This document shows positions 21,019 to 46,114 of a DNA stretch of 64,000 bases, one piece after another (positions within the stretch are counted from its first letter, which is position 1; every line of letters starts with the position of its first letter). The notes beneath the pieces are model-generated. The model saw nothing but the letters and a program-made list of their open reading frames with translations. It was not told where the DNA came from and did no database searches. Location: the IMG/VR virus record IMGVR_UViG_3300005096_000137, positions 32,001 through 96,000 of that record; one strand, 5' to 3'. Made by a program: the position numbers and the translations under genes. Source of the DNA: a virus.

Positions 21019-21230
21019 GTGAGTGGGTTATGGACGTGACAGGCCTGACCGCCTGGGAGGTAAGATTCCTCGCCCACTTGCATGGAGGACCCTACGAGGT
21101 GGGGACGTACATGGGTAAAAGTCCATTATGGAAGAACTACCCGCGTGCGTCGAGGTTCGTAACCTTACTCCTCCGCTTTAGTTTATCAACTGAACCGGCA
21201 CCGGATGGTGTTCCTTCGTGACTCACCCAC
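21019..21230 (+). ncRNA. candidate structured ncRNA (about 210 nt, rod-like)
   Basis: 16-bp terminal helix with 1 mismatch; nested ggagga/tcctcc and gacgtacatgggta/tacccgcgtgcgtc helices. Confidence 0.5.
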
Positions 21231-21331
21231 GATAGGTTGGTAAGCGTTAATGGGCGGTCCCCGCGACAAGTCTATACGACAAACCGTCTGGGGTACGACT
21301 CCCCGCCCTTTGATACAAATGAGGTGGATGA

Positions 21332-24795: not shown

Positions 24796-24877
24796 ACCGT
24801 CACGGTGTAACCGGCATCACACTAGATAGTACCTATAGGGCTATCTGGAGGAATGGGTTCGGGTCCCGAGGGCGGTA
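24796..24877 (+). ncRNA. tRNA-like RNA with elongated anticodon arm
   Basis: accgtc/ggcggt acceptor, ctagatag/ctatctgg extended arm, T-like loop. Confidence 0.5.
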
Positions 24878-24881
24878 CTTT

Positions 24882-24956
24882 GCCGTAGTGGTGTAAATGG
24901 CACAGCATACCAGGGCGTCCACCCTGGAGGCATGGGTTCGATTCCTGGGTGCGGCA
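24882..24956 (+). ncRNA. tRNA-like RNA with 8-nt anticodon loop
   Basis: gccgta/tgcggc acceptor, ccagg-gcgtccac-cctgg, ttcgatt T-loop. Confidence 0.55.
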
Positions 24957-24967
24957 CTTTGAGTTTT

Positions 24968-25072
24968 GCAGCGGTGGTGTAAAAGTGATCTAGGGAGGCC
25001 TCTCTAGGTACCATAGGTGAACATTACTGGGTTAGATACCCGGAGATGGGGGTTCGACTCCCCCACGCGGCG
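24968..25072 (+). ncRNA. tRNA-like RNA with hairpin inserted in D loop (copy 1)
   Basis: cloverleaf with ctaggga-ggcc-tctctag insert; T arm gggggttcgactccccc. Confidence 0.6.
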
Positions 25073-25083
25073 CTTCGAGTTTT

Positions 25084-25187
25084 GCAGCGGTAGTGGAAAA
25101 GTGATCCCGGAAGGCCTTCTGGGGTCCCATAGGTAACATTCCAGGCCTTTTAGCCTGGCGACAGGGGTTCGAGTCCCCTACGCTGCA
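25084..25187 (+). ncRNA. tRNA-like RNA with hairpin inserted in D loop (copy 2)
   Basis: cccggaa-ggcc-ttctggg insert; ccagg-ccttttag-cctgg; T arm aggggttcgagtcccct. Confidence 0.6.
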
Positions 25188-25189
25188 CT

Positions 25190-25260
25190 GTAGCTATGGT
25201 GTATTTGGCCTGCACAAGCCCTGCGAATGTCTAGGAGATGGTTCAAATCCTCTAGTCACT
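25190..25260 (+). tRNA. degenerate tRNA (loop ctGCGaa, Arg-like)
   Basis: D and T loop remnants, poorly paired stems. Confidence 0.3.
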
Positions 25261-40507: not shown

Positions 40508-41379
40508 GCTATGATTATGAAGTTGCTGGGCATGTCTACGTCGTCCCACTCCATGACATCTACGTGGACCCTGATTTCAATTGCCGGGGTGCATTTGCTC
40601 CTCATGAAGTTCACGGACTTGGTCAGAGTATCTCGGAAGAAGGTCAACGGGCTCCCATAGTTGTCCAACCTCTGGACGACGTCCCTGGACCAGAGCAGCC
40701 CCTGGGTGACTGGACCTTTCGTTTGATCGCCGGACATCGCCGCTACATGGCAATCGATAAATGGTCTACGGGTACTACTATCAACTGTGTGGTGGAGAGG
40801 GGACTGACCCGTGAACAGGCTTGCACTCTTAACTTCTCAGAGAATCTCCAGAGAAAGGACCTGAACATCTTGGAGGAGGCTCGCGCACTCCACCGCACCT
40901 GGCCAATCCAGTCATTGGGCATGATCTCAAAACTCATTGGGAAACCTAAGAAGTGGATCCACGCTCGCCGGATGCTCCTCCAGCTCCCTGATTACGTCCA
41001 GACACGGGCAGCCAGTAACGGTATTTCCCAGTACGATATCCTAATGCTTGCCAAACTCCCGCCCGACAGGGTGGAGGCAGCCTACGAGAAGCTGACTTCG
41101 TCAAAAGGAAAGACGGGGCGACGACCAGTGGTAGCCGGCAAACAGAAGTGGAGAAACCGACCTCGGGGAATCAATGAAATCTCAAAGATGGTCGCATTCC
41201 TGCTCCGCCACCAGCGATTCTCAGAACTTTCCGAAGCCGAAATTACTCTGGTCACGTCAACCCTGGTCTGGGTCACTAAAGGCATTGACGCACAGGAGTT
41301 ACTAGAGAACAGGTTTGGCTTCCCCGAGGGCAGCGTGGCTATCGATTCCACTGACGAAATTGAGGGAATGAAAGATTAG
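40495..41379 (+). CDS. ParB/RepB/Spo0J-like protein
   Basis: PIVVQ, LIAGHRRYMA, ENLQRKDLNILEEA. Confidence 0.85.
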   Translation: MLQLSYDYEVAGHVYVVPLHDIYVDPDFNCRGAFAPHEVHGLGQSISEEGQRAPIVVQPLDDVPGPEQPLGDWTFRLIAGHRRYMAIDKWSTGTTINCVVERGLTREQACTLNFSENLQRKDLNILEEARALHRTWPIQSLGMISKLIGKPKKWIHARRMLLQLPDYVQTRAASNGISQYDILMLAKLPPDRVEAAYEKLTSSKGKTGRRPVVAGKQKWRNRPRGINEISKMVAFLLRHQRFSELSEAEITLVTSTLVWVTKGIDAQELLENRFGFPEGSVAIDSTDEIEGMKD

Positions 41380-41404
41380 CCGCAGGTTTTATTGAAATTG
41401 GTTC

Positions 41405-41432
41405 TTGACTTCCCGGACCCATCGAGTATACT
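41405..41432 (+). promoter_or_regulatory. sigma70-like promoter for the Y-RNA/tRNA-like cluster
   Basis: TTGACT-16 nt-TATACT. Confidence 0.65.
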
Positions 41433-41542
41433 TGGTAATAGAACGTGCCAAAGATTCAAGACTAATTCCAGCCAAAAGAGCTGGTGAACTCTAACTTGAG
41501 GACAGAACGATGTAGTTGGCTGGGTGAAAGCCCAGCACCCTT

Positions 41543-41667
41543 GGAGGGGTAGCTCAGTTGGTAGAGCGCCAGTAGCATAAAAACAGTTGTGACAAACTTG
41601 CTATTAAGCCGAACATAGCTGATTATCTCGGAACTGGATGTCGCGGGTTCGAGACCCGCCCCCTCCG
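41543..41667 (+). ncRNA. tRNA-Y RNA chimera 1 (Ro-binding-like helix replacing the anticodon loop)
   Basis: GGAGGGG/CCCCTCC acceptor, canonical D and T arms, ccagt/actgg stem enclosing a 59-nt insert with ACTTGCT-atta-AGCCGAA...ATTATCT. Confidence 0.8.
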
Positions 41668-41669
41668 CT

Positions 41670-41734
41670 GCCTAAGCCGAAGTCAATGCGTTATCTTTCA
41701 TATGATTACCCGCACCGACATTCACTTGCCAGGC
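41670..41734 (+). ncRNA. minimal Y RNA-like gene 1
   Basis: gcct-AAGCCGAA-gtcaatgcGTTATCT...cgcaccgac-attCACTTGC-caggc. Confidence 0.75.
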
Positions 41735-41759
41735 TATTTTAGATGTAGACCAATACTTT

Positions 41760-41878
41760 ACGGGGGTAGCTCAGTTGTTAGAGCACCAGCTCGGGCCATT
41801 ACGACAAACTGTCCGGACAGTCTTGTATAACGGGTCACAGGGAGCTGGGGGTCGGTGGTTCAATTCCTCCTCCCCGTA
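41760..41878 (+). ncRNA. tRNA-like RNA with about 50-nt hairpin in place of anticodon loop
   Basis: acggggg/tccccgt acceptor, D arm, ccagctc/gagctgg stem, palindromic apex actgtccggacagt. Confidence 0.7.
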
Positions 41879-41883
41879 CTACT

Positions 41884-41949
41884 GCCTAAGCCGAAATCAA
41901 TGCGTTATCTTTCATATGATTACCCGCATTAACATTCACCTGCTATGGC
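41884..41949 (+). ncRNA. minimal Y RNA-like gene 2
   Basis: near-duplicate of 41670-41734. Confidence 0.75.
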
Positions 41950-42039
41950 GTTTTGAGTGTAGACCACGGACTACGAGCATCTTAGGCTGCTTATGGCCCT
42001 GGGGTCTCAGTTGTAGTTCAAGTCTGCCGCACTCACCTT

Positions 42040-42107
42040 GGGCGAAGCCGCAGCTCATGCGTTATCCTTGTAAGATTTGCCGCATACAGCATCGACTTGC
42101 TAAGCCC
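42040..42107 (+). ncRNA. minimal Y RNA-like gene 3 (divergent)
   Basis: gggc-gAAGCCGCA-gctcatgcGTTATC...cgcatacagc-atcGACTTGC-taagccc. Confidence 0.7.
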
Positions 42108-42120
42108 AATAATACAAAGT

Positions 42121-42138
42121 CCCCGCCTTCGGGTGGGG
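42121..42138 (+). terminator. GC hairpin after the RNA cluster (terminator or processing signal)
   Basis: ccccgcc-ttcg-ggtgggg; no clear U-tract. Confidence 0.4.
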
Positions 42139-42200
42139 CGTTCGCACAAAGTCCCTGTCCGCCCTTATGGCGGGCAGGGTAGTGATTCAAGGAGAGTAAT

Positions 42201-42572
42201 GTGTCTGATTACGATGAGTTTGAATCTGAGTTTGAAGCCGAGGAATTCAAGGCAGAAATCAAACAGATGCAAGCAGAGTCGCAAGGGGTGGCTCTAGACC
42301 ACGCAATTTATCGAGAAGCTTCACAGCATGCTGTGTTTGATGAATGGCAGATAGTCTCTTTATTGAACCAAGATGCCTACTTCGTGGATGGTTGTGATCT
42401 GGAAGCTGATCCCAAGACAGGTAAGTGTGTCTGTGTGATTCTCCGAGAGAAGGATGAGGGTACTGGTAAAATGTGTAACCACTATTATACACTGAAGAAT
42501 GCCCTGATCCGCCTCCGTCACATAACGCCCAACTTGTTCCTCGCGAACGTGAAGGGGCAATCGGATGACTGA
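42201..42572 (+). CDS. hypothetical protein (PxLF family)
   Basis: C-terminal YTLKNALIRLRHITPNLF. Confidence 0.6.
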   Translation: MSDYDEFESEFEAEEFKAEIKQMQAESQGVALDHAIYREASQHAVFDEWQIVSLLNQDAYFVDGCDLEADPKTGKCVCVILREKDEGTGKMCNHYYTLKNALIRLRHITPNLFLANVKGQSDD

Positions 42573-42891
42573 CTCCAAGATACCAACCGAGTTGGAATTG
42601 GCTGAAAAGAAGTACCATTATTTAGTGATTCGAGAATCCATTTTGAAAGCCGCGAAATCACACCGGGTTTACTGGCCATTGCAGATTCTCCTACTTCTTA
42701 GGGACCAAGCTTATATTGAAGGTGGCTATGGTGGCAATTCATATGAGATTCCTTCTGGTGTGGTGCGCGTGAATCTGGATGTAAAAACCTTGAATCCTAC
42801 CAGTCCGGCGAAAAGACTCTATTCTTTAGATCGTGTTATGAAACGACTTCGGCAAATTCATCCAAGTCTATTTAACCTGGGGGTTGAATAA
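42565..42891 (+). CDS. hypothetical protein (PxLF family)
   Basis: C-terminal YSLDRVMKRLRQIHPSLF. Confidence 0.6.
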   Translation: MTDSKIPTELELAEKKYHYLVIRESILKAAKSHRVYWPLQILLLLRDQAYIEGGYGGNSYEIPSGVVRVNLDVKTLNPTSPAKRLYSLDRVMKRLRQIHPSLFNLGVE

Positions 42892-42896
42892 CCAGA

Positions 42897-43463
42897 ATGA
42901 ACTTTCAGAATACGACTGGGAATTATGCCATTGCAGCCGGTCTGGCCGCTTCTGCGCATACTAAGCAACGTCGGAAAGACCCTGATAGGACCCCCTACAT
43001 CAATCACCCACTTGAAGTTGCCGTCCTCTTAACATATGATGGGCAAGTGGATGATGTGGATACTCTGATCGCAGCAGTCCTTCATGATGTTGTGGAAGAT
43101 ACAGATATCACGCTAGGTTTTATCTTCACCCTGTTTGGTCCCCGAGTGAGGGACATCGTGGCCGAGGTTACTGACGACAAGTCGCTCCCGAGTGCAACAA
43201 GGAAGCAACTACAAATTGACAACGCCCCTGGTAAGTCAGACGCCGCCAAGATGATTAAGATCGCGGATAAGATAGTCAATATCCAAGACATGAGCACAGA
43301 GTCCCCTGTTGGCTGGTCGACTGACCGGAAGTTCGAGTACATTGATTGGGCGACGAAAGTCGTGGCAGGTTGTGCCGGCGTGAATTCTAATTTGGATGCC
43401 ATATTTCACAGTGCGGCTATCCAAGCCAAAGCCAACTGTACTACTGTTGGGAACCATGAGTAA
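42897..43463 (+). CDS. MESH1/SpoT-type HD-domain hydrolase (small alarmone hydrolase-like)
   Basis: HTKQRRKD...PYINHP, AAVLHDVVEDT, EVTDDK, KIADKIVN. Confidence 0.88.
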   Translation: MNFQNTTGNYAIAAGLAASAHTKQRRKDPDRTPYINHPLEVAVLLTYDGQVDDVDTLIAAVLHDVVEDTDITLGFIFTLFGPRVRDIVAEVTDDKSLPSATRKQLQIDNAPGKSDAAKMIKIADKIVNIQDMSTESPVGWSTDRKFEYIDWATKVVAGCAGVNSNLDAIFHSAAIQAKANCTTVGNHE

Positions 43464-43526
43464 CCTCAATTCTACACGGTAACTCTCCGAGGGTTACTGT
43501 GCAAACTTTATGATTGGAGACAGAGA

Positions 43527-43844
43527 ATGGCAATTACTTTAGACACCACCTATCACGGCGTAGTTCAAGAGGTCCGTAACCTAAGCTACCAATGGGCAGA
43601 CAATTTGGTCGCCCTCTTGATTGTCGAAGCGGCTATGAAGCAAGGGGCTTTTAATCCACAGCAGGTCCGGGTACTTTTAGCAGACGGAGCCACGACTAAT
43701 CCTAATGTCAATCCTCATTTTGGATTACCTCGGGACTTTGAGGTCCGGATAAGTAACAGCCACACAGGGGGTGTCGGGATGTCTCTTGAACAGGCAGTGA
43801 GTTACTTGAAAGAGACCCAGCCCAATTTGTTCCTGGCTGACTAA
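43527..43844 (+). CDS. hypothetical protein (PxLF family)
   Basis: C-terminal MSLEQAVSYLKETQPNLF. Confidence 0.6.
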   Translation: MAITLDTTYHGVVQEVRNLSYQWADNLVALLIVEAAMKQGAFNPQQVRVLLADGATTNPNVNPHFGLPRDFEVRISNSHTGGVGMSLEQAVSYLKETQPNLFLAD

Positions 43845-43851
43845 TACATGT

Positions 43852-43984
43852 AGTCCAAGAGCAACGGAATCAGAACCGAATAATGACTCTAAACTGAATC
43901 GACAAATCTGACCACCCTGGGTGGAGTCCGAGAGCAACGGAATCAGAACCGAATAATGACTCTAAACTGAATCGACAAATCTGA
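43852..43984 (+). repeat. 60-bp direct repeat, two copies (period 73)
   Basis: agtcc(a/g)agagcaacggaatcagaaccgaataatgactctaaactgaatcgacaaatctga at 43852 and 43925. Confidence 0.9.
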
Positions 43985-43990
43985 ATCGAT

Positions 43991-44137
43991 GCGACTGTGG
44001 TGTAATGGTAGCACACATACTAACTAGGTTGTCAATAACTTGCGCAGAAGAAGTACCTTCGGGGAACCACGCTGAGCCGAATGTTAACCGTTATCTCTTG
44101 CACGAGTGTGGACTAGGTTCAATTCCTAGCAGTCGTT
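43991..44137 (+). ncRNA. tRNA-Y RNA chimera 2, immediately upstream of ro60
   Basis: gcgactg/cagtcgt acceptor, D arm, T arm ctaggttcaattcctag; insert ggttgtca..ACTTGC...AGCCGAA-tgttaacc-GTTATCT. Confidence 0.8.
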
Positions 44138-44165
44138 TTAACAATTTCACTGGAGAACTGAAATC

Positions 44166-45740
44166 ATGTCCTACTCAACTGATATTGGTCGAACTGATCA
44201 AGTTACTAACAACCAAGGTGGTCGTGTCTTCCAGATTGACTGCTGGGCACGCCTAGAGCGGTTCCTCATTCTTGGACACGAGGGTGGGAGCTACTACGCC
44301 GAGCAGCAGAAGCTGACTCTTGAGACAGTTGTTTGTATTGATGAGTGTCTGGCTGAAAGTTCGTACCTCATGGTGAAGGCTATCGTGGACATCAGCCAAT
44401 CAGGACGGGCTCCAAAGAATGACCCGGCCATCTTTGCGCTTGCCTACGTAGTGTCAAAGAAGGACGAGTCATCCCAGTATGCGCTCAAGTTTCTGGGGGA
44501 TGTGTGTCGGATTGGGACACATCTTGCTCAGTTCCTAAATCACTGTAAGAACCTTGGCAGAGGTTGGGGTCCATCATTCACGCGGGCAGTTGCTGAGTGG
44601 TACAACCGTGATCCAGAACGGCTTGCCATGCAGGTGACAAAATACGCGAACCGAAAAGGGTGGACACATCGTGACATTCTCCGCAAGGCGCACCCTTCGT
44701 CCAAGGATAAGAAGCTTGACAACATCTTCTGTTACCTGACCCAACATGCGAAGTGGTCACGCCGGAAGAACTCGGGACCTGCTGATGAGTTCCTGTGTGC
44801 GGTGGATGAAGCTAAGGACTCAAAAACGACCGTGGCTCGGCTCGTGGAACTAATTCAGTTGTATGGGCTGGTGCGCGAGCACATGCCAACCAATGCTTTG
44901 AACAATCGAGAAGTCTGGATGGCGCTGCTTCAAAACATGCCACTCACGGCAATGATTCGCAACCTGGGTAAGATGTCCAGCATTCGACTCCTCACACCCC
45001 TGAGCACTGGTTCAAAGCTGGTGCGGTCTGCACTCGAAGACTCTGGAAACCTAAAGAAACAACGGGTTCATCCCTTGTCATTACTGATTGCGCTCAAGCA
45101 ATATGGCGAAGGTCAGGGTCTTCGTGGCTCCCTTACTTGGGACCCTGTCCCACAGATTATGACAGGCTTGGACAATGCCTTCTATGAGGCGTTTGACTTC
45201 GTGGAGCCGACCAATAAGAACCACCTCCTAGGTGTTGATGTCTCAGGCTCTATGGACTGGACCAACTGTGTTGGGGCAGGTGTTCTCAAATGTTCCGAGG
45301 GTGCAGCAGCTATGGCTATGCTGGCAGCTCGGACAGAAGAGAACACGCACGTCTTTGGTTTTGCCGACGATTTCCGTGACCTGGGTATCACTGCTTCAGA
45401 TTCCTTGCAGACTGCATTGAAGAAGACCGAGACTGGGACCTTCGGCGGTACGGATTGTGGACTCCCCATGCACTACGCCGCCAATCATGGGATTGAGGTG
45501 GATGTGTTCTGCGTCTACACGGACAATGAAACGGGTGGTGGCTACTACAGTCGGACCAAGGACCCACACCAGGAACTTGAACGCTACCGGCAGACAATGG
45601 GACGGGACGCTAAACTGGCAGTGTTCGGGATGGCACAGAACGAGTTTAGTGTTGCTGATCCTAAAGACGCTGGGCAAATGGACTTTGTTGGATTTGATGC
45701 GTCGGCTCCAACTTTACTTGCGAACTTCGTTCGTGACTGA
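44166..45740 (+). CDS. rsr: Ro60/TROVE-domain RNA-binding protein with vWA domain
   Basis: NNQGG, RLERFLILGHEGGSYY, RIGTHL, KYANRKGWTHRDILRKAHP, MPLTAMIRNLGKM, DVSGSM (MIDAS), GGTDC, YTDNET, GFD. Confidence 0.95.
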   Translation: MSYSTDIGRTDQVTNNQGGRVFQIDCWARLERFLILGHEGGSYYAEQQKLTLETVVCIDECLAESSYLMVKAIVDISQSGRAPKNDPAIFALAYVVSKKDESSQYALKFLGDVCRIGTHLAQFLNHCKNLGRGWGPSFTRAVAEWYNRDPERLAMQVTKYANRKGWTHRDILRKAHPSSKDKKLDNIFCYLTQHAKWSRRKNSGPADEFLCAVDEAKDSKTTVARLVELIQLYGLVREHMPTNALNNREVWMALLQNMPLTAMIRNLGKMSSIRLLTPLSTGSKLVRSALEDSGNLKKQRVHPLSLLIALKQYGEGQGLRGSLTWDPVPQIMTGLDNAFYEAFDFVEPTNKNHLLGVDVSGSMDWTNCVGAGVLKCSEGAAAMAMLAARTEENTHVFGFADDFRDLGITASDSLQTALKKTETGTFGGTDCGLPMHYAANHGIEVDVFCVYTDNETGGGYYSRTKDPHQELERYRQTMGRDAKLAVFGMAQNEFSVADPKDAGQMDFVGFDASAPTLLANFVRD

Positions 45741-46006
45741 ATATGACGAATAACGAAGACAGCATGACATGTTCCCAATGGGCAGAAGCACATCGAGCCA
45801 ACCCCACTGAGGACACACAAACTCCATCCCCGGAGTTGTTGCGAGTCCTAGAGTGGCAGCGTGAGCAGCGGTCAGTTCGCTGGTTCATAAAGTGGTTGTT
45901 CTCGGATAACAATAATCGCTAGGAGGTGCCCAATGGTCCCTCTTTGGCCATGCGGTGCTTAGCACCCCGGCTGGACATATCAGTGTGGTTGGTCGCCACG
46001 AGTAGG

Positions 46007-46098
46007 GAGCCAGGTAGATTCATTTCTATCTGGCTCTTTTTATGCCTTGCCCAGAACCCCAGCTTCGATTAGAATGGAGGGGTACCATTTCAACGCCA
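46007..46098 (+). promoter_or_regulatory. terminator+promoter module, copy 1
   Basis: gagccaggtaga..tctatctggctc-T tract, then TTGCCC-17-TAGAAT. Confidence 0.7.
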
Positions 46099-46114
46099 CA
46101 ATGAGGATCAAACT

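What the first reader, a model, noticed from the sequence alone, without database searches (positions are those of the whole stretch)
43991..44137. Second, independent tRNA-Y chimera directly in front of ro60
Seen: a different tRNA body (gcgactg/cagtcgt) with the same permuted module: ggttgtca/tgttaacc helix, ACTTGC...AGCCGAA and GTTATCT. Here it is capped by a longer arm with a cUUCGg loop instead of the 4-nt loop. It ends 28 nt before the Ro60 ATG. The helix sequence differs completely from chimera 1 while pairing is kept, which supports a selected structure. Inference: it is co-transcribed with ro60 and may autoregulate it.
Basis: partly seen in the sequence, partly recalled or inferred. 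Interest (0 to 1): 0.82.

Follow-up and report, generated by a model that had tools for sequence, protein, structure and literature searches.

The report
Second tRNA-shaped Y RNA before phage ro60
Just ahead of a phage's Ro60 gene lies a 147-base RNA gene wired like a normal tRNA, but with the Ro60-docking helix of Y RNAs in place of the anticodon loop; this layout is common beside Ro60 genes of phages and bacteria, and I found no published description of it.

Summary
Window 43991-44137 has a tRNA body: a 7-bp acceptor stem, a D arm with GG, and a T arm with a TTCAATT loop. In place of the anticodon loop it has a capped Y-RNA module in swapped strand order (ACUUGC … AGCCGAA-N8-GUUAUC). It ends 28 nt before the Ro60 ATG.

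A covariance model built only from 31 relatives in other phages finds it end to end at 63 bits (E 5e-14). Ordinary tRNAs score 42 bits or less. All five helices covary in two sequence sets: 94-95% of cells are paired, against 38-53% when the partners are slid.

I collected 117 distinct members from 72 Ro60 loci, always on the Ro60 strand. It is a circular permutation of YrlA, with the RNA ends in the acceptor stem rather than in the Ro60-binding stem.

It is not an independent invention of this phage. It belongs to a second conserved subtype (GUGU…GCAC D arm) that occurs together with chimera 1's subtype in 18 loci.

Co-transcription with ro60 is likely. Autoregulation is untested, and the variable position of relatives argues against it.

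This scan had already flagged the same class in this genome and in at least 28 others. In the literature I could search, only the closed-acceptor YrlA is described.

The parts
43991..43997 (+). Acceptor stem, 5' strand (GCGACTG)
   Evidence: Pairs 7/7 with 44130-44136. This helix is 98% paired with compensatory changes at all 7 positions across relatives.
44000..44014 (+). D arm: GTGT / AATGGTA / GCAC, with G18 G19
   Evidence: This D-arm type defines the second subtype.
44016..44026 (+). Linker. CATAC can pair with GTGTG at 44106-44110 (anticodon-stem-like); it is followed by CTAACTA, which resembles the CUAAAAC linker of relatives.
   Evidence: Constrained fold; alignments A4 and A5.
44027..44034 (+). 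Upper Y helix, first strand (GGTTGTCA)
   Evidence: 7 of 8 positions pair with 44082-44089. In the family all 8 pairs of this helix covary, and no permutation in 5000 reached the self-pairing score.
44038..44047 (+). ACTTGCGCAG: the strand that forms the 3' side of the Ro60-binding helix in ordinary Y RNAs. Here it comes first.
   Evidence: The canonical strand order is visible in the Rfam sbRNA alignment of the neighbouring mini-Y RNA.
44048..44071 (+). Cap of the lower helix; contains c-UUCG-g (44057-44062)
   Evidence: The fold here is weak or ambiguous. Relatives usually have a tetraloop cap (GCAA, GAGA, UUCG).
44072..44081 (+). CTGAGCCGAA: the GNCGAA strand of the Ro60-binding helix, with bulged C at 44078
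   Evidence: Lower-helix pairs show G-C to A-U and C-G to U-A changes in relatives.
44082..44089 (+). Upper Y helix, second strand (TGTTAACC)
44090..44097 (+). GTTATCTC motif
   Evidence: Nearly invariant GUUAYC in alignments A2, A4 and A5.
44098..44112 (+). Variable region: small hairpin CTC…GAG, then GTGTG GA
   Evidence: Relatives carry a CUCU…AGAG hairpin at this position.
44113..44129 (+). T arm: CTAGG / TTCAATT / CCTAG
   Evidence: This helix is 99% paired in the family.
44130..44137 (+). Acceptor stem 3' strand (CAGTCGT) plus discriminator T. No CCA is encoded; a U-rich trailer follows.
   Evidence: The phage's own tRNAs also lack an encoded CCA and have C/T-rich trailers. 14 of 78 relatives encode CCA at this point.
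44138..44165 (+). 28-nt spacer with Shine-Dalgarno GGAG at 44152-44155
44166..45740 (+). ro60 (TROVE + Ro60 vWA domains, 524 aa)
   Evidence: Pfam E-values 1.6e-35 and 2.5e-51; full-length homologues.

Best explanation
The element is a gene for a small stable RNA that partners the phage's Ro60. It is a Y RNA of the YrlA kind, circularly permuted so that it has the strand order and free ends of a real tRNA.

The acceptor, D and T arms form a tRNA-like L shape. Where the anticodon loop would be, a two-part helix closed by a cap presents the conserved Ro60 docking site: GNCGAA with a bulged C opposite CUUG, then an 8-bp upper helix, then GUUAYC.

It is probably transcribed as part of the long + strand unit that runs on into ro60. 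It would then be cut out like the phage's tRNAs (RNase P at the 5' end, 3' trimming, host CCA addition), which also sets the 5' end of the ro60 message.

Once bound to Ro60, the tRNA-like half would act as the effector or tether module, as proposed for YrlA.

Shown here: the motifs, the fold conserved by covariation, family membership, linkage to Ro60 on the same strand, and enrichment of encoded CCA in relatives.

Inferred: Ro60 binding, the processing route, and the effector role.
For: - Motifs and helices lie at the stated coordinates, and the motif pattern is not expected by chance.
- Model R2 was built without any window sequence. It hits 43991-44136 over its full length at 63.3 bits, E 4.9e-14. 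Chimera 1 scores 80.5 bits and ordinary tRNAs of the window 42 bits or less.
- Covariation: in A6, 94.0% of cells are paired against 39-47% when slid, and 27 of 29 pairs show compensatory changes. In A7, a set of 39 metagenome sequences not used to build the model, 95.1% are paired against 38-53%, and 24 of 29 pairs show compensatory changes. In both sets all 8 pairs of the upper helix covary.
- Upper-helix self-pairing averages 6.9 of 8 against 5.65 for non-self pairs; no permutation in 5000 reached the observed value.
- Every model hit of at least 95 nt lies on the same strand as a Ro60 gene. That is 117 distinct sequences in 72 loci, drawn from 77 phage, 80 bacterial and 72 metagenome Ro60 loci scanned.
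- 14 of 78 relatives encode CCA directly after position 73, where about 1.2 are expected (p = 2e-11). This fits real tRNA-type 3' ends.
- The flanks resemble those of the phage's own tRNAs.
- Published precedent: YrlA binds Ro60 and mimics tRNA, and M. smegmatis YrlA is opened by RNase P and receives CCA (PMC4201824; bioRxiv 10.1101/312249).
Against: - There are no expression or binding data.
- Thermodynamics do not favour the fold: -29.3 against -36.8 kcal/mol, z = 0.24.
- The element is atypical for a tRNA. The variable region has only 2 nt if CATAC/GTGTG pairs, the first pair is G1·U72, and the upper helix has a U·U mismatch. Neither ARAGORN nor Rfam tRNA calls it.
- It scores lower than most relatives (63 against 75-108 bits).
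- Alignments A6 and A7 were fitted to the model's structure, which inflates the paired fraction somewhat.
- The two Y-RNA reviews most likely to mention such a form were not available to read.
Confidence: 0.75

Rival explanations
1. In addition to, or instead of, acting in trans, the element is a cis-acting leader of the ro60 mRNA. Ro60 would bind the Y module 70-90 nt ahead of the start codon and feed back on its own synthesis, through translation, mRNA processing, or partial termination at the acceptor stem plus U run.
For: - It ends 28 nt before the ATG, with only a Shine-Dalgarno site in between.
- A UUUU run follows the acceptor stem, as in the nearest relatives L047, L059, L082 and L052b.
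- tRNA-order Y RNAs also sit 42 nt (L017) and 68 nt (L059) ahead of ro60.
- No separate ro60 promoter was found.
Against: - The position is not conserved. Family members lie 40 nt to about 2 kb upstream of ro60, or 90-1300 nt downstream. In L047 a whole ORF separates the closest relative from ro60.
- An intact tRNA-like body is expected to be cut away from the mRNA.
- The only terminator-like call is the T arm itself, with the T run 7 nt away.
Confidence: 0.15
2. It is a decoding tRNA gene interrupted by an intron-like insert, which is removed to give a functional tRNA.
For: The cloverleaf body is complete. Close relatives (L047, L059) and many others exceed Rfam's tRNA gathering score when read as tRNAs with a long insert.
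Against: - Nothing resembling an anticodon loop remains. The positions after the stem read UA…, so there is no U33.
- The insert is the most conserved and covarying part of the RNA and carries Y-RNA motifs.
- At 75 nt it is far too small for a group I intron, the kind known in bacterial and phage tRNAs (established knowledge).
- The linkage is to Ro60, not to tRNA arrays as such.
Confidence: 0.02
3. It is a decaying duplicate or a chance resemblance with no function.
For: It has the lowest model score among clear members (63 bits), mismatches in the upper helix, a weak cap and a short variable region.
Against: - All invariant family positions are kept: CUUGC, GCCGAA, GUUAUC, G18 G19 and the T loop.
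- The acceptor stem pairs 7/7.
- The pattern is not expected by chance.
- Its subtype is conserved across many genomes.
Confidence: 0.05

Closest known systems
YrlA (Y RNA-like A; Rfam RF02553; Chen et al. 2014, PMC4201824; structure in Wang et al. 2018, bioRxiv 10.1101/312249)
   Same: - It is encoded beside Ro60.
- It has the GNCGAA helix for Ro60, followed by GUUAUC.
- It has a tRNA-like domain with T arm, D arm, acceptor stem and V region.
- The GUGUAAYGGUAGCAC D arm and CUAAAAC linker of this element also occur in closed-acceptor YrlA-type RNAs next to phage Ro60 genes (L011, L002).
   Different: - The strand order differs. In YrlA the RNA ends lie in the Ro60-binding stem and the acceptor stem is closed by a loop. 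Here the ends lie in the acceptor stem and the Ro60-binding stem is closed by a cap.
- The Rfam YrlA model gives no hit on this element at E <= 10.
- It also gave no hit at gathering score in 15 loci that hold relatives.
- Cultured actinophages (Alice, FuzzBuster) carry the closed form.
[quoted passage not shown]
   Same: An open 7-bp acceptor stem with a tRNA-type 3' end on a Ro60-bound RNA.
   Different: That RNA is made closed and then nicked into two pieces. This one is encoded open, as a single chain.
Metazoan Y RNAs and nematode stem-bulge RNAs (RF00019, RF01656)
   Same: The bulged helix …GNCCGA… / …ACUUG… and the GUUAUC motif. The window's neighbouring mini-Y RNA at 41669-41734 aligns weakly to RF01656 (22 bits).
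   Different: They have no tRNA domain, their ends lie in the Ro60-binding stem, and their strand order is the opposite.
tRNA (RF00005)
   Same: Acceptor, D and T arms with the elbow nucleotides. Many relatives pass Rfam's tRNA threshold.
   Different: There is no anticodon loop. This element itself is not called by Rfam or ARAGORN.
Circularly permuted tRNA and tmRNA genes (permuted tRNA genes of red algae, cited in bioRxiv 10.1101/312249; two-piece tmRNA, from general knowledge)
   Same: A precedent that tRNA-like RNAs tolerate circular permutation of the gene.
   Different: Those are processed back into a standard function. Here both topologies appear to be used as Ro60 partner RNAs.

Membership tests
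tRNA-order Y RNA (open-acceptor, YrlA-like; family defined here by models R1 and R2) | Full-length match to a covariance model built without the query | tested here: met
   R2 gives 63.3 bits, E 4.9e-14, over model positions 1-125 of 125.
tRNA-order Y RNA (open-acceptor, YrlA-like; family defined here by models R1 and R2) | A 7-bp acceptor stem formed by the two ends, plus a D arm with GG and a T arm with a TTCRANY loop | tested here: met
tRNA-order Y RNA (open-acceptor, YrlA-like; family defined here by models R1 and R2) | Capped module in the order upper strand – CUUG(C) – cap – GNCGAA – upper strand – GUUAYC | tested here: met
   The upper helix pairs at 7 of 8 positions.
tRNA-order Y RNA (open-acceptor, YrlA-like; family defined here by models R1 and R2) | Lies on the same strand as a Ro60 gene and within a few kb of it | tested here: met
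   28 nt upstream of the TROVE/vWA_Ro60 ORF.
YrlA (RF02553) | 5' and 3' ends paired in the Ro60-binding stem, with the acceptor stem closed by a loop | tested here: not met
   The strand order is the reverse. There is no T arm upstream and no D arm downstream that would allow the closed reading.
YrlA (RF02553) | Reaches Rfam's gathering score (69 bits) | tested here: not met
   No hit on 43991-44137 at E <= 10.
YrlA (RF02553) | GNCGAA motif, tRNA-like D and T arms, and a location within 4 kb of Ro60 | tested here: met
YrlA (RF02553) | Binds Ro60; is modified by tRNA enzymes | not testable with these tools
   Needs immunoprecipitation or a gel-shift assay, and modification mapping.
tRNA (RF00005) | A 7-nt anticodon loop with U33 | tested here: not met
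   The loop is replaced by about 75 nt, and the first residues are UA.
tRNA (RF00005) | Called by tRNA finders | tested here: not met
   ARAGORN finds nothing; Rfam tRNA gives no hit at E <= 10.

The most novel reading that the evidence does not exclude
tRNA-order Y RNAs are matured and used as real tRNA-ended molecules, through RNase P, CCA addition and perhaps aminoacylation. About a third of relatives carry a tRNA-His-like G-1:C73 extra pair, and 18% encode CCA. Through them Ro60 would be tethered to the machinery that handles tRNA: CCA-adding or tRNA-repair enzymes, EF-Tu or the ribosome, or tRNA-targeting defence nucleases, for which they could act as uncleavable decoys. The two conserved subtypes (GCUC-type and GUGU-type D arm) would recruit different partners. 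In this phage, cutting out the second subtype would also set the 5' end of the ro60 mRNA, coupling the amounts of RNA and protein.
Probability: 0.15. Interest if true: 0.85.

Novelty: new variant of a known kind. Interest (0 to 1): 0.6.

Why it matters
Y RNAs are the obligate partners of Ro60, a protein conserved from bacteria to humans, and what their tRNA-like halves do remains an open question. A widespread form wired as a true tRNA with open ends, and sometimes with CCA encoded, shows three things:

- The tRNA mimicry is under selection in both topologies.
- It offers single-chain substrates for testing which tRNA-handling factors Ro60 is tethered to.
- It explains why current YrlA models miss the partner RNAs of many Ro60 genes, while tRNA finders mislabel them as tRNAs with introns.

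This particular element adds that genomes often carry two distinct subtypes, and that one of them can sit directly in the ro60 leader.

Tried and rejected
- ARAGORN and Rfam (gathering threshold, and E <= 10) do not call the element.
- A DNA search of cultured phage genomes found no match. A single-protein scan of viral contigs with Ro60 found none either.
- Free-energy folding gives no support: z = 0.24.
- Motif-only scans for the 'permuted' order gave false positives. Some came from closed Y or YrlA genes lying in tandem (L002, L009, L013, L048), and some were chance hits in coding DNA (L003, L006, L007). I therefore required acceptor pairing and used covariance models instead.
- My first heuristic parser placed the lower helix wrongly in several sequences. 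An unrestricted self/non-self test was too noisy. Both were replaced by anchoring on the model alignment.
- MAFFT alignments put the upper helix off register by one column. This was resolved by realigning to model R2.
- The intron-bearing tRNA reading was rejected: there is no U33 or anticodon loop, and the insert is the conserved part.
- The 63-nt direct repeat upstream was checked as a possible Y module or structured RNA. It has no GUUAUC, no notable fold, and is unique in the genome.
- Two reviews (PMC10870794, PMC6047535) are not held.
- A 2026 preprint on bacterial tRNA mimics does not cover this class.

Full report
**What is there.** The window is part of a 148-kb uncultured virus record that CheckV rates as complete. 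At 43991-44137 on the + strand the sequence reads as a tRNA body:
- acceptor stem GCGACTG / CAGTCGT, 7 pairs with G1·U72;
- D arm GTGT-AATGGTA-GCAC;
- T arm CTAGG-TTCAATT-CCTAG;
- discriminator T.

In place of the anticodon loop there are about 75 nt, in this order: GGTTGTCA, ATA, ACTTGCGCAG, a 24-nt cap, CTGAGCCGAA, TGTTAACC, GTTATCTC. GGTTGTCA pairs with TGTTAACC at 7 of 8 positions. CTTGC pairs with GC-C-GA, leaving one C (44078) bulged.

These are the hallmark motifs of Ro60-binding Y RNAs, but in the opposite strand order. The ordinary order is GNCCGA … GUUAUC … ACUUG. It is visible in the three small Y-like RNAs further upstream and in the alignment of one of them to Rfam's nematode stem-bulge RNA model.

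The combined motif pattern occurs twice in 64 kb, here and in chimera 1 at 41543-41667, and was never seen in 100 shuffles. The element ends 28 nt before the ATG of a full-length Ro60 gene with TROVE and Ro60-vWA domains.

**Weak points of the observation.**
- ARAGORN and Rfam do not call it a tRNA.
- Its minimum-free-energy fold is ordinary (z = 0.24).
- The proposed fold is 7.5 kcal/mol above the MFE.
- The cUUCGg cap rests on two base pairs above a large internal loop and is ambiguous.

**Is it a selected structure?** I fetched 80 viral Ro60 loci, 80 bacterial loci and 80 metagenome loci. A first screen for tRNA bodies with long inserts that carry the swapped motifs gave a dozen clear relatives.

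A covariance model built from 31 such RNAs from other phages, with no window sequence in it (A5 and R2), finds 43991-44136 over its full length at 63.3 bits (E 4.9e-14). Chimera 1 scores 80.5 bits. The window's ordinary tRNAs reach at most 42 bits. The whole 148-kb genome holds only these two.

| Set | Cells paired | Paired when partners slid | Pairs with compensatory change |
|---|---|---|---|
| 48 matches in viral loci | 94.0% | 39-47% | 27 of 29 |
| 39 metagenome matches, none used to build the model | 95.1% | 38-53% | 24 of 29 |

In both sets every pair of the upper Y helix covaries. The lower helix shows G-C to A-U and C-G to U-A exchanges.

These alignments are fitted to the model, so I also made a test that does not depend on them. 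Each RNA's upper-helix strands pair with each other better than with the strands of other members: mean 6.9 against 5.65 of 8, and no permutation in 5000 reached the observed value. Positions 5-6 of that helix are often non-canonical across the family, as they are here (G·U, U·U).

**What family is it?** The parts are those of YrlA, the tRNA-like Y RNA of bacteria and phages (PMC4201824; bioRxiv 10.1101/312249):
- the GNCGAA helix;
- GUUAUC;
- a V hairpin;
- a T arm, acceptor stem and D arm;
- a CUAAAAC-like linker.

In YrlA the RNA ends lie in the Ro60-binding stem and the acceptor stem is a closed hairpin. Here the ends lie in the acceptor stem and the Ro60-binding stem is capped. This is an exact circular permutation.

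Closed-acceptor YrlA-type genes with the same GUGUAAYGGUAGCAC D arm and linker sit beside chimeras in other phages, such as L011 and L002. Cultured actinophages (Alice, FuzzBuster) have only the closed form. Rfam's YrlA model misses the open form entirely, while Rfam's tRNA model picks up many members as tRNAs with an insert. [quoted passage not shown]

**Distribution.** I collected 117 distinct members in 72 Ro60 loci, all on the Ro60 strand. They come from phage contigs and from metagenome bins of several phyla: Chloroflexota, Myxococcota, Armatimonadota, Abditibacteriota, Planctomycetota and Gammaproteobacteria.

**Not an independent graft.** The body of this element is 42% identical to that of chimera 1. 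It is 57-66% identical to members with a GUGU…GCAC-type D arm in other phages: L047, L059, L066b, L082, L010b, L017b.

- Across the set, 85 members have the GCUC-type D stem of chimera 1, and 28 have a D stem beginning GU or AU.
- 18 loci, including the window, carry both types.
- The nearest neighbour in another locus is of the same type for 84 of 85 and 24 of 28 members. The D stem itself contributes to that comparison, so the test is partly circular.

The two chimeras of this phage are therefore representatives of two old subtypes.

**Evidence that the acceptor ends are real RNA ends.** Fourteen of 78 relatives encode CCA directly after position 73, where about 1.2 are expected (p = 2e-11). 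About a third of relatives have a G at -1 opposite C73, an eighth pair of the tRNA-His kind.

This element encodes no CCA, and neither do the phage's own tRNAs. Its U-rich trailer resembles theirs. Several of its closest subtype relatives also have U73 followed by a U run.

**Transcription and the autoregulation idea.**
- The only strong sigma-70-like promoter in 41300-46100 lies at 41405-41432.
- All genes up to ro60 are on the + strand, and no terminator is predicted between them.
- A strong terminator hairpin with a U run follows at 46005-46043.
- With only 28 nt and a Shine-Dalgarno site before the ATG, ro60 must be read through this element or from a promoter inside it.
- tRNA-order Y RNAs also lie 42 nt (L017) and 68 nt (L059) ahead of ro60.

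Co-transcription is therefore likely. Excision of the tRNA-like RNA would set the 5' end of the ro60 message.

Feedback by Ro60 is possible but untested. Family members also occur up to 2 kb upstream, downstream of ro60, or separated from it by an ORF (L047). Any cis role would therefore be local to this phage and not a property of the family.

**Literature and earlier notes.** The papers I could read describe only the closed form and the RNase P-opened M. smegmatis YrlA. Two reviews were not available. Earlier notes of this scan report the same class for chimera 1 and the array in this genome, and in at least 28 other genomes. These are unreviewed AI notes; I re-derived the claims here.

**Verdict.** This is a real, conserved tRNA-order Y RNA of the second subtype, very probably a Ro60 partner RNA. 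It is a new variant of a known kind. Autoregulation remains speculative.

Noticed in passing
window 43849-43911 and 43922-43984: Two 63-nt direct repeats (97% identical) flank a small hairpin (CCACCCTGGGTGG) and fill the gap between ORF 43527-43844 and the element. They are unique in the genome and show no notable fold and no Y motifs.
   Followed up: partly
window 24796-25250: A run of odd tRNA-like elements with GGTGTAA-type D arms and long, non-standard anticodon arms. Model R2 hits them weakly at 24796-24876, 24882-25071 and 25084-25186. They may be further tRNA mimics.
   Followed up: no
window 41760-41877: A tRNA body with a 52-nt insert that has no Y motifs (palindromic apex ACTGTCCGGACAGT) in place of the anticodon loop. 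Rfam tRNA scores it at 47 bits.
   Followed up: no
window 41669-41734, ~41882-41950, ~42040-42108: Three small Y-like RNAs in the ordinary strand order. The first aligns weakly to the nematode stem-bulge RNA model RF01656 (22 bits).
   Followed up: partly
relatives in L043, L053, L012, L061, L044, L023, L004, L066, L148, L154, L163 and others: About a third of tRNA-order Y RNAs have G at -1 opposite C73, an eighth acceptor pair like that of tRNA-His. 14 of 78 encode CCA after position 73 (p = 2e-11).
   Followed up: partly
window 42897-43463: An HD-domain protein (Pfam HD_4, the RelA/SpoT-type hydrolase family) is encoded in the same + strand unit, between the RNA array and ro60.
   Followed up: no
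window 46005-46043: A strong intrinsic terminator (14-bp stem plus UUUUU; z = -3.05) closes the unit after ro60 and a 59-aa ORF.
   Followed up: partly
window 21181-21249: An Rfam DUF3800-IX RNA match (45.6 bits, above the gathering score) inside the phage's tRNA region.
   Followed up: no
L004 2336-2721 (- strand): Three tRNA-order Y RNAs lie in tandem with 6-7-nt spacers, followed by a lone capped Y module. The source is a 37-kb viral contig whose Ro60 status I did not check.
   Followed up: no
L047, L059, L082 leaders compared with window 43982-43990: The nearest relatives share the 5' leader TGAATAA(T/C) immediately before the acceptor stem. The window has TGAATCGAT. This may be a processing or promoter signal.
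   Followed up: no
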